Made by a program: the position numbers | Source of the DNA: Podarcis vaucheri | Lineage: Eukaryota | Reading direction: 5' to 3' (one strand) | Length of the DNA stretch: 64,000 nucleotides | Assembly (NCBI GenBank): GCA_965113315.1 | Contig: OZ220363.1 | Part shown: in pieces, positions 28,301-31,300 of the stretch | Numbering within the stretch: position 1 is the first letter of the stretch | How the letters are laid out: each line of letters opens with the position of its first letter

Positions 28301-31300
28301 TGTCTCCAAGTATATCCATGTGAGTAAGGTTGTTTAACAAATTTCAGAGCTATGGATCGCTTTAAAGCCACAGTATCTATTCTTAAGAGTGCTATAGCAT
28401 TGCTGCAGTGCTTTCAACAATCTGAACAACCTGTATTCTACAATATTTCTCTTACGTTCTATATACAAAATCTGTGGATGACTTCCATAGTTATGGGCAG
28501 TACCGACGTCTACAGATTTTAATTAGTTTTTGGTTTTTAATTAGTGTTATTTAAATAAAAATACAGCAGCAGCACCTTGTTGCCCCTCTGGGGAGAGGAT
28601 GGAACTGTATAAAAAGTTATGACAGTTGGTGTTCATGAGACTTCCGGGTTAGCGCCTCTGGCAATGGCAGATTTCCTCTCTGTGGAAATCAGGGTCTGGA
28701 CCACCACGGCGAGGCGGAGACCTACCAAAAACCACAGGCGGGAGAAGCCTGTGGACGTGGGATTCGGCTGGCACCTTTTGCGCCTCCCCTACTCATGTGG
28801 AAACCTGGTTTCGGGGATCTGGAGCGATGTGGGGTGAGCGGCGCGGTGCTTCAAATCGACTGCTTCTTTCACGGAGTGAAGCCGCATTGCTGTTGCCAGA
28901 GAGCGCTGACTTTTTCCTGTGGACAATTGGACTCTAAACAACTACCCGTGAGTAGAACGGAAAATTGGATCTCTAAACGTCTTAATTTGGCATCGAAACC
29001 GGAAGGCTTCAAACAGGAAGCCCGCCTTCCTCTTTTGTAAATAGATTGAAGCAAAGACGTTGCAAGCTAAAGCCTGGAAAGTCTTTTGTAAAGGATTAAA
29101 TCTCCATCGGTTAAAATTACTAAACCCCCCTTGGAAGCAGGAGAAGAGGGGGGAAATTCTAGATCGTTTAAGCCTGCAGGAGAGAGAGTGAAGAAAGATA
29201 AATCACCACCGTTTCGAACCTGGGAACGGGCTGCCAGTAAGATTGACGTTTTGGGAAAGTTCATTGACTGTGAATAAAACGTATGTTGACAGATAGTTAA
29301 ATAAGAGAAATATATTGTTTCCACTGCTTCCTTTTGCACTTAAAAAGGAGCAAAAAAAAAAAAAAGGAACTGAAAATTGAAACTAACTCTGTCGCTGGAT
29401 CTGCGTTTAAAAGGATGGATACAAATAGAAATTGTTTCCCCTAGAGGGAGCTTTTGAAACTGTTGCAGGAGTGGAGCTAGGGAATTTTCCAGCTGTAGAG
29501 ATTAAAGAGCGTGAGAATCAGAGTCTGACATTGGACAAGAATGTTGACAGAAGAAGCCTTAGTGATTGCATTTTGCAAGACAAGTGCTTTATTGGAACAG
29601 CTTCATGAGAAGATGGATGTGATGATTATTAAAATTGACAATTCAGGACAAAAAATGACTGAGTTGGGACAAAAAGGGAATACCTATACAGAAATTACTC
29701 AGGAATTGACCCAGGAATCTGTTTTGACATGGCAAGCTGTGGAGAAGTCGAAGGAGAAAGTTGTTGTTGAACCTCAAGTAATTCAAGTGGAGAGAGCCCC
29801 GGCCTCACAGAGGCAATTTGATGAACATAAGCTGTTGCCTTTTACGATCGAATCTAGAGAAAGCCAGATTTGGTGGGATGGAGCCCCACTTGGATTGGAG
29901 AAGGAAAGTTGGATAGATCCTCCTATGCAGGGATGCTCTGGCCTTTGGGATCTGGATTTGGGTCAGGGGGAGATTGGTGCTCTGAAATATCTTTTGGACT
30001 TTAGTTCTGACTATGGAGAATGGGCTGACCTGTCGAGAAGGAATAAAGACATTGTTAGGTTGGAGTTTCCCCGAGATCTACTCCTCAGTGCCAAAGGAAG
30101 GAAATTAAGAACAAGATCAGCAGAAGATAAAGTAAAGTGCATGTATAAATATGAAGAAGATCTGCAGAAGGGACATGGAAAAGAATTAAGAGCCTCGGAC
30201 AGAAGGTCACCAGGTTGATGGACTATATGGTATTGATAGAAAGGACTGACAGAACCCGAGACCAGGGAGAAGAGACGGTGGAGGAAGATTGAAAAAAAGT
30301 TTTAAAAAATTATTTAGAGAAATGTTGCAAAATTAATGAGTGATAGGAAAATGTTGGAATGAAATTATATGGCTTTAGTAGAAATGTTATAAGGAGTTAA
30401 GTATAAATAAGTTTTAGGATTTTGATGGTAAGATAAGGTTAAAATAAATTAAGATAATTAAATGATAGAAAGCAGTGAAAGATGGAAAGGATTTCCTGAA
30501 ATAATTAATAACTAGAACACAAAAAGGGAGGTGTGAGGAGGTCGATGAAACAAGTTAATGAAAGATAAAGATATGGAAATAATGGATGTGTTTTTAACTG
30601 TTTTTGCTTTTCTTTTTGTTTTGATGTATTGTGTCTTTTGCTTTTTTATATGTATTGTAATGTATTGATTTGTACTGTTTATTTTTTCTCTTTCTTTTTT
30701 TCTTTTTTTTTCTTTTTTCAATTCCTAAACTTTTAATAATTTTTTTTTAAAAAAAAAGACAGTTGGTGTTCATGCTCAGCATGGATCAGATAGACTATTC
30801 AGAGGTATATTTTTTGAGCTGTGTCAGTGCCAGCTAGATTTCTTCAGTGCCTTGTGGCCCCTTTTGACACTAAGCAAGGTTAAGTAGACACAACTAGAAC
30901 AAAGAAAGAAAGGAGAAAAATGAACCCAATGCGAATAAGGATTCTAATAAATACTTTTCCTTGATAGCCTAAGCAATACCAAATTCTTTATTTCAAAATA
31001 ATATATTGAATAATATAATAAATCCATAAAGACGATGAATTATTTTTGTATTCATAAAGCAGCACAGAAACTAGGAAATGCACAAGGAAAGGTTCTAATA
31101 AAAATACAGATAACAGACAGGAGAACTTGTGGACCCTAACTCCCATCAGCCTCAGCCAGCACGGTCAGTGGTCAGGGATATTGGGAGTCATAGTCCAACA
31201 ACATCTAGAGGGCCACCACTTTCCCATTCCCTTTTATTCCAGAATCCTATCTGCAGCAAGATGGAAGGGGGAAGGGGGAGATCCAGCTGAATAAAAATTC

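What the first reader, a model, noticed from the sequence alone, without database searches (positions are those of the whole stretch)
28638..30757. Complete 2.1-kb L1-dependent element with its own open 225-aa ORF and no RT: candidate undescribed non-autonomous retroposon family
Seen: a perfect 17-bp TSD and an A tail bracket the unit. It has a CpG-rich L1-type promoter (GACTTCCGG start, ETS-like), a ~900-nt leader, an intact ORF with a coiled-coil-like N-terminus and an unrecognised W/D/L-rich C-terminal half, then a decayed copy of the last ~45 codons of ORF2 and the L1 3'UTR. Established: HAL1 and bipartite elements are ORF2-less L1 derivatives mobilised in trans. Inference: the ORF stayed open while the adjacent ORF2 remnant gained a stop and a frameshift, suggesting selection. 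It might encode a truncated ORF1-like protein that co-assembles with helper L1 RNPs (parasite or dominant-negative regulator).
Basis: partly seen in the sequence, partly recalled or inferred. Interest (0 to 1): 0.7.

Follow-up and report, generated by a model that had tools for sequence, protein, structure and literature searches.

The report
Lizard half-L1 element with degenerate ORF1
This is a 2.1-kb lizard LINE-1 that has lost its reverse-transcriptase gene and keeps only a cut-down first gene; related copies in other lizard data suggest a small family that borrows the enzymes of complete LINE-1s.

Summary
A perfect 17-bp target-site duplication and an A9 tail bracket a 2,120-bp unit at 28638-30757.

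All four parts come from L1:
- The 5' end starts with GACTTCCGG, the conserved terminus of lizard clade-1 L1 (PMC5381506).
- The 225-aa ORF is a degenerate ORF1.
- The last 43 codons of ORF2 follow it.
- An L1 3'UTR closes the unit.

The "unrecognised" C-terminal half of the ORF is the start of the ORF1p RRM plus the ORF1p C-terminal domain. 53 residues of the RRM core and the basic N-terminus are missing.

It is not a one-off deletion. Six other proteins share this architecture: two from Podarcis lilfordi and four from unnamed assemblies. Four of the six end at the same ...PG stop, which the ORF1|ORF2-tail junction creates. The seven short proteins separate from nine full-length-type ORF1p rows in a tree (100/99).

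Best reading: a HAL1-like, ORF2-less L1 derivative moved in trans.

Selection on the ORF is suggested but not shown. The ORF stays open, the leader is depleted in ATG, and the helix has heptad periodicity. No DNA of other copies could be examined, and Repbase/Dfam could not be checked. No frameshift was found in the ORF2 remnant.

The parts
28621..28637 (.). 5' copy of the 17-bp target-site duplication
   Evidence: Identical to 30758-30774; only two occurrences in the window
28638..29540 (+). 903-nt leader, an L1 clade-1-type 5'UTR: one extra A, then the GACTTCCGG start. The first 400 nt are CpG-rich. An A14 run lies at 29352-29365.
   Evidence: GACTTCCGG...ATGGC at 28639-28668 resembles the conserved lizard clade-1 L1 5' terminus GACTTCCGGTGN8ATGGCG, but with 16 nt instead of 10 between the two motifs (PMC5381506 passage). 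Length 903 nt; GC about 0.46 and 35 CpGs (derived), inside that paper's clade-1 5'UTR range. ATG depleted: 5 against 12.7+-2.6 in dinucleotide shuffles, 2 of 1000 as low.
29541..30218 (+). 225-aa ORF (stop included), a degenerate L1 ORF1
   Evidence: Residues 1-123 match the coiled coil of full-length-type ORF1p (P0006, 47% over 119 aa). Residues 149-224 match the CTD (P0005, 60.5% over 76 aa).
29541..29768 (+). Residues 1-76: long helix, the coiled-coil remnant
   Evidence: AlphaFold2 helix 2-76, pLDDT 90-98 up to residue 70. Family-averaged hydrophobicity has period 3.5; 2 of 2000 shuffles were as strong. The window sequence alone is not significant, 369 of 2000.
29826..29984 (+). Residues 96-148: diverged remnant of the start of the RRM (beta1-alpha1 region). 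The RRM core is absent after it.
   Evidence: The alignment with full-length ORF1p lacks the 53 residues that correspond to P0008 194-246, which are beta2, beta3, alpha2 and beta4 in the P0008 model. pLDDT is below 50.
29985..30215 (+). Residues 149-225: ORF1p C-terminal domain and tail
   Evidence: tblastn gives 42-60% identity to 5 full-length-type ORF1p CTDs over 29985-30212. The fold is not confidently predicted.
30209..30218 (+). ORF1 | ORF2-tail deletion junction; the ORF's TGA stop (30216-30218) is made here
   Evidence: ORF1 homology runs to 30212. ORF2 homology starts at 30212-30216 in another frame. Full-length ORF1p continues about 40 aa beyond this point.
30212..30343 (+). Remnant of the last 43 codons of L1 ORF2 plus its stop. 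It has an in-frame TGA at 30290-30292 and a 3-nt insertion.
30344..30748 (+). L1 3'UTR, AT-rich, with an 18-nt G-rich block at 30526-30543 and a T-rich end
   Evidence: Homologous to the 3'UTR of the L1 fragment at 36.7-37.2 kb. The block is identical at 37038-37055.
30749..30757 (+). A9 tail
30758..30774 (.). 3' copy of the target-site duplication

Best explanation
The unit is one insertion of a non-autonomous, ORF2-less LINE-1 derivative: a 'half-L1', comparable to mammalian HAL1 but of independent, lacertid-lizard origin.

Origin. An ancestral clade-1-type lizard L1 lost everything from about 40 codons before the end of ORF1 to 43 codons before the end of ORF2. It kept the L1 5'UTR with its canonical start, a cut-down ORF1, and the L1 3' end.

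Movement (inferred). The RNA is transcribed from the internal 5'UTR promoter and polyadenylated. Because it has no endonuclease or RT of its own, it is copied into the genome by ORF2p from complete L1s, by target-primed reverse transcription. That leaves the 17-bp duplication and the A tail, which are shown.

The ORF. The product keeps the coiled-coil helix and a diverged C-terminal domain. It lacks the basic N-terminus and the RRM core, so it probably cannot coat RNA like normal ORF1p (inferred).

Why the ORF stays open (least certain step). The frame appears to have stayed open in the active lineage. The most likely reason is that translation, or coiled-coil pairing with helper ORF1p, helps the RNA reach helper L1 particles.
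For: Shown:
- TPRT hallmarks.
- The 5' terminus GACTTCCGG equals the conserved lizard clade-1 L1 start (PMC5381506 passages).
- ORF homology to ORF1p. 12 proteins at E<=0.001 among 1.84 billion representatives: 3 short relatives and 9 full-length-type or chimeric ORF1 models.
- The full-length relative P0008 folds as coiled coil + RRM + CTD. Its 10 best PDB matches are all human L1 ORF1p chains (E 2.8e-8 to 9.3e-6).
- The ORF2 tail and 3'UTR are L1. All 9 Podarcis ORF2-type proteins match, including P0023 with RVT_1 and Exo_endo_phos.

Family:
- A profile search found 6 proteins with the same architecture: internal-Met start, RRM-core gap, short length. Two are annotated in Podarcis lilfordi.
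- 4 of the 6 end ...LRASDxRxPG like the window ORF.
- 7 short rows split from 9 full-length rows with 100/99 support.
- The element's ORF2 tail is only 60-63% identical to Podarcis ORF2p. The neighbouring L1 fragment is 76-91% identical. Yet the TSD is perfect and the 5' CpGs are kept. This points to an old lineage with a later insertion.

ORF kept open:
- Under neutral substitutions alone, P(open) is 0.0135 at 74% residual aa identity and 0.001 at 53%. Family members are 38-53% identical to the window ORF, P0015 26%.
- ATG depletion in the leader, 2 of 1000 shuffles as low.
- Heptad periodicity of the family helix, 2 of 2000 shuffles as strong.
Against: - No DNA of any other copy could be examined. 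The shared junction in the relatives is inferred only from their common C-terminus.
- The relatives were found because they are open frames, which is ascertainment bias. A large family of dead copies could yield a few open ones.
- 2 of the 6 relatives (P0003, P0015) stop earlier.
- The protein looks eroded. The RRM core is gone. The CTD carries further deletions in P0001, P0007 and P0014. Residues 80-225 have mostly pLDDT below 50, and Foldseek finds nothing (8 matches, all E>=4.7).
- Pfam gives no Transposase_22 match.
- The window helix alone shows no significant heptad signal, 369 of 2000.
- TGA is also somewhat depleted in the leader (13 of 1000), so the ATG result may partly reflect composition.
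- The nick site (...GTTAT|GACAG...) is not the TTTT/AA consensus of mammalian L1 (recalled).
- A perfect 17-bp TSD bounds the age only loosely.
Confidence: 0.65

Rival explanations
1. The family is real and is moved in trans, but the ORF is a passenger. The RNA propagates only through its L1 promoter and 3' end, and the open frame in this copy and in the database relatives is survivorship.
For: The RRM core is deleted, the CTD is deleted in 3 of 6 relatives, and there are many indels. The C-terminal half has a low-confidence fold. The relatives were ascertained as open frames. Family identity is only 18-81%.
Against: Neutral simulation gives P(open) of 0.0135 or less at the observed divergence, before counting indels. 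All gaps between members are in frame, and 4 of 6 relatives keep the same start and stop. The leader is ATG-depleted. The family helix has heptad periodicity.
Confidence: 0.22
2. A one-off, dead-on-arrival L1 copy whose internal deletion arose during or after this single insertion.
For: Internal deletions that join ORF1 to the ORF2 tail do recur. P0017 of P. lilfordi fuses the ORF1 N-terminus to the last ~65 aa of ORF2 at a different junction. Only one copy lies in this window.
Against: Six other proteins share the same derived features, and 4 share the junction-made stop. They form one side of a 100/99 split against full-length ORF1p. The ORF is 38-53% identical to five of them (P0015 26%), so the architecture long predates this insertion.
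Confidence: 0.05
3. A processed retrocopy of the mRNA of a host gene that was domesticated from L1 ORF1 (L1TD1-like), rather than a transposon family.
For: The open frame is conserved in more than one lizard data source, and two models are annotated as genes in P. lilfordi. The coiled coil is retained, as proposed for L1TD1 (PMC4161310 passage).
Against: The unit keeps the canonical L1 5' terminus, a broken ORF2 tail and the L1 3'UTR. Two P. lilfordi models are only 45% identical to each other, which fits diverged transposon subfamilies better than one gene. No intron-bearing parent was seen.
Confidence: 0.06

Closest known systems
HAL1 (half-L1) of mammals
   Same: An L1 derivative that lacks ORF2, keeps an ORF1-type frame and an L1 promoter, and is thought to be moved by L1 in trans. 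HAL1s arose several times independently (PMC5753468 passages; PMC8535693 passage).
   Different: It is found in lacertid-lizard data, not mammals, so its origin is independent. Its ORF1 is not whole: the basic N-terminus and 53 residues of the RRM core are missing. It still carries 43 ORF2 codons and the L1 3'UTR. The primary HAL1 paper (Bao and Jurka 2010) was not held, so finer comparison rests on recall.
Lizard clade-1 L1 (Anolis L1 families in Boissinot and Sookdeo 2016)
   Same: The 5' terminus GACTTCCGG. The 5'UTR length (903 nt, against 792-1465) and GC (about 0.46, against 45.2%). An AT-rich 3'UTR of 405 nt (against 194-570). ORF1 with coiled coil and CTD (PMC5381506 passages).
   Different: No endonuclease or RT. 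ORF1 is 225 aa instead of about 350. The spacing between the two 5' motifs is 16 nt, not 10.
Truncated human ORF1 proteins that suppress L1 in trans (Sokolowski et al. 2017)
   Same: A protein with the ORF1p coiled coil but without a working RNA-binding part. [quoted passage not shown]
   Different: Those are premature-stop products of dead human L1 loci, not the frame of a propagating family. The lizard protein also lacks the N-terminal region that the human effect needs. No assay exists for it.
L1TD1 (host gene domesticated from L1 ORF1)
   Same: ORF1-derived, with the coiled coil retained. A dominant-negative action on ORF1p trimers has been proposed (PMC4161310 passage).
   Different: L1TD1 is a single host gene. 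Here the frame sits inside a TSD-flanked unit with L1 ends, and it has diverged paralogues within one genome.

Membership tests
LINE-1 derivative (TPRT insertion) | Target-site duplication and 3' A tail | tested here: met
   Perfect 17-bp TSD and an A9 tail
LINE-1 derivative (TPRT insertion) | L1-type 5' terminus and 5'UTR | tested here: met
   GACTTCCGG...ATGGC at 28639-28668 against the published lizard clade-1 consensus (PMC5381506). Only the motif, length, GC and CpG content were compared; no L1 5'UTR DNA was available to align.
LINE-1 derivative (TPRT insertion) | ORF2 and 3'UTR homology at the 3' end | tested here: met
   The last 43 ORF2 codons are 60-63% identical to Podarcis ORF2p, and all 9 queries matched. 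The 3'UTR is 71.5% identical to another L1 3' end.
LINE-1 derivative (TPRT insertion) | Endonuclease nick at a TTTT/AA-like site (mammalian consensus, recalled) | tested here: inconclusive
   The empty site reads ...AAAAGTTAT|GACAG.... It does not fit the consensus. The preference of lizard L1 endonuclease is not known to me.
HAL1-type half-L1 | L1-derived and lacking ORF2 (no EN, no RT) | tested here: met
   The only ORF of 90 aa or more with protein relatives is the ORF1 remnant. Only 43 ORF2 codons remain.
HAL1-type half-L1 | Encodes ORF1p | tested here: not met
   ORF1 is partial. The N-terminal ~50-65 aa and 53 aa of the RRM core are absent. There is no Pfam match and no PDB fold match.
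HAL1-type half-L1 | A multi-copy family spread by retroposition | tested here: inconclusive
   Six related proteins were found (two in P. lilfordi), and 4 of 6 have the same end. They form one clade-like split. No genomic DNA of other copies could be read, so TSDs and junctions elsewhere are unseen.
L1 ORF1p (coiled coil - RRM - CTD) | Coiled-coil domain | tested here: met
   47% identity to the P0006 coiled coil. Confident helix 2-76. Family heptad periodicity. Oligomeric state was not tested, because the complex job never ran.
L1 ORF1p (coiled coil - RRM - CTD) | RRM fold | tested here: not met
   The 53-residue core is deleted, and the remaining part is 16-29% identical to full-length proteins with pLDDT below 50.
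L1 ORF1p (coiled coil - RRM - CTD) | C-terminal domain | tested here: inconclusive
   Sequence homology is 42-60%, but the fold was not confidently predicted.
Domesticated ORF1-derived host gene (L1TD1-like) | Single orthologous locus kept by selection across species | not testable with these tools
   No lizard genome collection was on hand

The most novel reading that the evidence does not exclude
Lacertid lizards carry a long-lived lineage of L1 parasites whose only gene is a coiled-coil 'decoy' ORF1p. It has no RNA-binding RRM and no basic N-terminus. It would be kept open by selection because it joins helper L1 ORF1p trimers. Through that pairing it would either steal the helper's particles for its own RNA or damp the helper. 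That would be a transposon-encoded dominant-negative ORF1p maintained over evolutionary time.
Probability: 0.15. Interest if true: 0.7.

Novelty: new variant of a known kind. Interest (0 to 1): 0.42.

Why it matters
Half-L1 elements are known from mammals, where they carry a whole ORF1. This element suggests that L1 in lizards has also spawned an ORF2-less parasite, and one that keeps only the oligomerisation part of ORF1p.

If the frame is truly maintained, it gives a natural test of two questions. One is what ORF1p's coiled coil does on its own. The other is whether transposon parasites use, or poison, the helper's particles.

It also matters in practice. Gene annotators call these frames hypothetical proteins, as in the two P. 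lilfordi models, so recognising the family would clean up lizard annotations.

Tried and rejected
Searches on the window ORF that found nothing:
- Pfam gave only noise, E 0.061 and 0.077.
- A PDB sequence-profile search with the short family gave 2 hits at E>=0.72.
- The full-length ORF1p profile found no L1 ORF1p either, only coiled-coil look-alikes such as trimeric adhesin fragments.
- Foldseek on the window ORF model gave nothing.
- Rfam on 28400-31000 gave one sub-threshold hit, 19.9 bits against a gathering score of 37, so there is no small-RNA head.

The leader:
- Compared with ORF1p N-termini it gave only noise, best E 0.02 in a 900-nt target.
- The leader is single-copy in the window.
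- No TSD was found for the second L1 fragment.

Tools and papers that were unavailable:
- Bao and Jurka 2010 is not held.
- Three paper searches failed on a term that was too short and were re-sent.
The queue was full each time, so the job never ran and there is no result either way.
- One script failed on a division by zero and was fixed.

Readings rejected:
- A SINE-like small-RNA head: no Rfam match.
- A chimeric retrocopy joined at the A14 run inside the leader: there is no evidence for it, and the 5' terminus is canonical L1.
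Full report
Observation.

The unit is real and sharply bounded. The 17-mer GACAGTTGGTGTTCATG occurs only twice in the window, at 28621-28637 and 30758-30774. Between the two copies lie 2,120 bases that end in A9.

The first 400 nt have CpG o/e 0.82 and GC 0.54. The flanks have CpG o/e 0.18 and 0.13, and the whole window 0.31.

A 225-codon ORF runs 29541-30218. 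The longest open frame of the unit is 229 codons. 1000 dinucleotide-preserving shuffles gave a mean of 118, and 3 of 1000 reached 229. The other five frames over the same span carry 7-17 stops.

The window is not human. Its L1 fragments are 76-91% identical in protein to Podarcis wall-lizard sequences, so the source is probably a lacertid lizard. Two runs of N (54922-55051, 55064-55251) were left alone.

All four parts are L1.

(i) 5' end. After one extra A, the unit starts GACTTCCGG, followed 16 nt later by ATGGC (28639-28668). The pattern occurs once in the window and in 0 of 100 shuffles. Boissinot and Sookdeo (PMC5381506, passages read) give GACTTCCGGTGN8ATGGCG as the conserved 5' terminus of Anolis clade-1 L1. 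For that clade they report 5'UTRs of 792-1465 nt at 45.2% GC, and 3'UTRs of 194-570 nt. The leader here is 903 nt, about 46% GC, with 35 CpGs. The 3'UTR is 405 nt. So the element is full-length at its 5' end in the L1 sense. No L1 5'UTR DNA was available to align, so this rests on the terminal motif, length and composition.

(ii) ORF. See the next section.

(iii) ORF2 tail. 30212-30340 aligns to the last 43 residues of Podarcis ORF2 proteins at 60-63% identity. All 9 ORF2-type proteins fetched matched here. Among them is P0023, 1246 aa, with RVT_1 (E 2.4e-40) and Exo_endo_phos (E 4.5e-14). The remnant has one in-frame TGA at 30290-30292 and a 3-nt insertion, but no frameshift.

(iv) 3'UTR. 30216-30692 is 71.5% identical over 492 columns to a second, 5'-truncated L1 3' end at 36736-37200. 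The two share the same terminal layout: a poly(A)-signal-like motif, a T run, then the A tail.

What the ORF is.

Pfam does not recognise it. A full HMMER scan of 1.84 billion representatives found 12 proteins at E<=0.001. Nine are full-length-type or chimeric L1 ORF1 models of 119-838 aa. They match the query in two blocks:
- residues 1-123, the coiled coil (for example P0006, 47% over 119 aa);
- residues 149-224, the C-terminal domain (for example P0005, 60.5% over 76 aa).

These relatives really are L1 ORF1p. This was checked by folding P0008 with a 7-sequence alignment. The model shows coiled coil, RRM and CTD at pLDDT 70-87. Its ten best PDB matches are all human L1 ORF1p chains, E 2.8e-8 to 9.3e-6, probability 1.00. 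Pfam and PDB sequence profiles miss them too.

Against these proteins the window ORF has four differences:
- It starts at an internal Met and lacks the basic N-terminal 50-65 residues.
- It keeps a diverged start of the RRM.
- It lacks the 53 residues equal to P0008 194-246, which are beta2, beta3, alpha2 and beta4.
- It keeps the whole CTD.

The AlphaFold2 model of the window ORF (14-sequence alignment) has a confident helix at residues 2-76. Almost everything after residue 80 is below pLDDT 50. Foldseek finds nothing, 8 matches all at E>=4.7.

The junction.

ORF1 homology runs to 30212 (...RRSP). ORF2 homology begins at 30212-30216 in a different frame (...LMDYM starts at 30215). The ORF's TGA at 30216-30218 is therefore created by the junction. 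Full-length ORF1p continues for about 40 more residues. A few bases may be shared by both sides (microhomology), but that cannot be settled without the parent L1 DNA.

A family, not a one-off.

A profile of the short proteins found 6 proteins at E<=0.001 among 2,931 candidates. P0001 and P0002 are annotated as hypothetical proteins of Podarcis lilfordi. P0003, P0007, P0014 and P0015 come from unnamed assemblies.

All six show the internal-Met start and the RRM-core gap. 4 of 6 end ...LRASDxRxPG exactly like the window ORF. The other two, 174 and 154 aa, stop earlier.

Identity to the window ORF is 53, 49, 44, 44, 38 and 26%. The two P. lilfordi models are 45% identical to each other.

I built a maximum-likelihood tree of 16 rows, keeping 278 of 444 columns. 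The chimeric models P0004 and P0005 were cut to their ORF1 parts, and the ORF2 proteins were not included. The 7 short rows form one side of a branch against the 9 full-length rows, with support 100/99.

A shared junction-made stop in sequences this diverged means the deletion derivative itself has been copied and has diversified. The element's ORF2 tail is also much further from Podarcis ORF2p (60-63%) than the neighbouring ordinary L1 fragment is (76-91%). Yet the TSD is perfect and the 5' CpGs survive. That suggests an old lineage and a later insertion.

Three limits apply. I saw proteins only, no DNA of other copies.

Is the ORF maintained?

For:
- With random substitutions only, the window ORF stays open with probability 0.0135 at 74% residual identity and 0.001 at 53%. 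Indels would lower this further.
- All gaps between members are in frame.
- The sense-strand leader has 5 ATGs against 12.7+-2.6 in dinucleotide shuffles, and 2 of 1000 were as low. The control CAT shows 6 against 6.1.
- Hydrophobicity averaged over the family has period 3.5 in the helix, with 2 of 2000 shuffles as strong.

Against:
- The relatives were found because they are open frames.
- The RRM core is gone.
- Three relatives have lost part of the CTD.
- The C-terminal half is not confidently folded.
- The window helix alone has no significant heptad signal, 369 of 2000.
- TGA is also low in the leader, 13 of 1000.
- The ATG depletion may simply be inherited from the L1 5'UTR.

dN/dS could not be computed.

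Mechanism.

Shown: a TPRT-type insertion of an RNA that has L1 ends and no enzyme genes.

Inferred:
- Transcription starts from the L1 5'UTR promoter.
- Reverse transcription and integration use ORF2p from complete L1s. Such L1s exist in Podarcis (P0023).
- The ORF product keeps an oligomerising helix without the RNA-binding core.

Most speculative: the helix pairs with helper ORF1p. [quoted passage not shown] The same idea has been raised for L1TD1 (PMC4161310, passage). In human L1 the basic N-terminus is required for retrotransposition (PMC5940361, title and passages), and this ORF lacks it. The complex prediction meant to probe self-association never ran because the queue was full.

Comparison with the known.

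The closest kind is HAL1. It is a non-autonomous L1 derivative that encodes only ORF1p, and it arose several times in mammals (PMC5753468, passages). This element works like a HAL1, but it fails the feature "encodes ORF1p" in the strict sense and comes from lizards. So it is an independent, variant instance.

Seven paper searches turned up no description of a squamate half-L1. The 6 papers that hold both "HAL1" and "lizard" do not appear from their titles and abstract openings to describe one (listing); two of them (PMC5753468, PMC8535693) were read only in passages around "HAL1". Repbase and Dfam, the primary HAL1 paper and paper supplements were not available. The family may therefore already be catalogued.

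Copy number, other TSDs and the junction in other copies therefore stay unchecked.

Verdict.

Selection and function are unproven, and the frameshift is wrong. This is a new variant of a known kind, of moderate interest.

Noticed in passing
window 36726-37258 (+): A second, 5'-truncated L1 3' end. Its last 45 ORF2 codons are intact, 91% identical to a Podarcis lilfordi protein and 76-87% to eight other Podarcis proteins. It also carries a 3'UTR. No TSD was found.
   Followed up: partly
window 30526-30543 and 37038-37055: An 18-nt G-rich block is identical in both L1 3'UTRs. It sits inside a ~23-nt perfect run in an alignment that is otherwise ~71% identical. It is reminiscent of the G-rich polypurine tract of mammalian L1 3'UTRs (recalled). 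By my rough estimate the run length is only marginally beyond chance.
   Followed up: partly
window 40193-43383 (+): A large non-LTR retrotransposon of another clade. An Exo_endo_phos ORF (E 2.7e-12) and an RVT_1 ORF (E 5.2e-36) lie in different frames. It is only 27-30% identical to L1 RT and ends in an (ATT)n run at about 43340-43383. The same tail motif appears in reverse orientation at about 31574-31855.
   Followed up: partly
protein P0017 (Podarcis lilfordi, 124 aa; no window coordinates): A different ORF1|ORF2-tail fusion: the ORF1 N-terminal ~57 aa joined in frame to the last ~65 aa of ORF2. Internal deletions that join the two genes therefore recur in lacertid L1s.
   Followed up: no
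window 29352-29365: An A14 run inside the 5' leader, 175 nt upstream of the ORF start. Its origin is unexplained. Nothing suggests a chimeric retrocopy, but no other copy was available to compare.
   Followed up: no
window 28728-28754 and 28818-28871: Two weak, same-frame resemblances of the leader to the conserved N-terminal motif of lacertid ORF1p (E 0.39 and 0.02 in a 900-nt target). This is noise level, but odd that both fall in one 94-codon open stretch.
   Followed up: partly
full-length lizard ORF1p relatives (P0008, P0010, P0011, P0013): Their coiled coils match trimeric autotransporter adhesin fragments in the PDB (2wpq, E 5.9e-7) through repeated N-T-x-x-I type motifs. Boissinot and Sookdeo question whether lizard ORF1p forms trimers at all.
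   Followed up: no
window 12001-14000: A GC-rich stretch (GC 0.517) with long open frames of low complexity on both strands and (GA/CT)-type repeats. It may be a CpG island or a gene 5' end.
   Followed up: no
window 54922-55051 and 55064-55251: Two runs of N (130 and 188 bases). They were left as they are.
   Followed up: no
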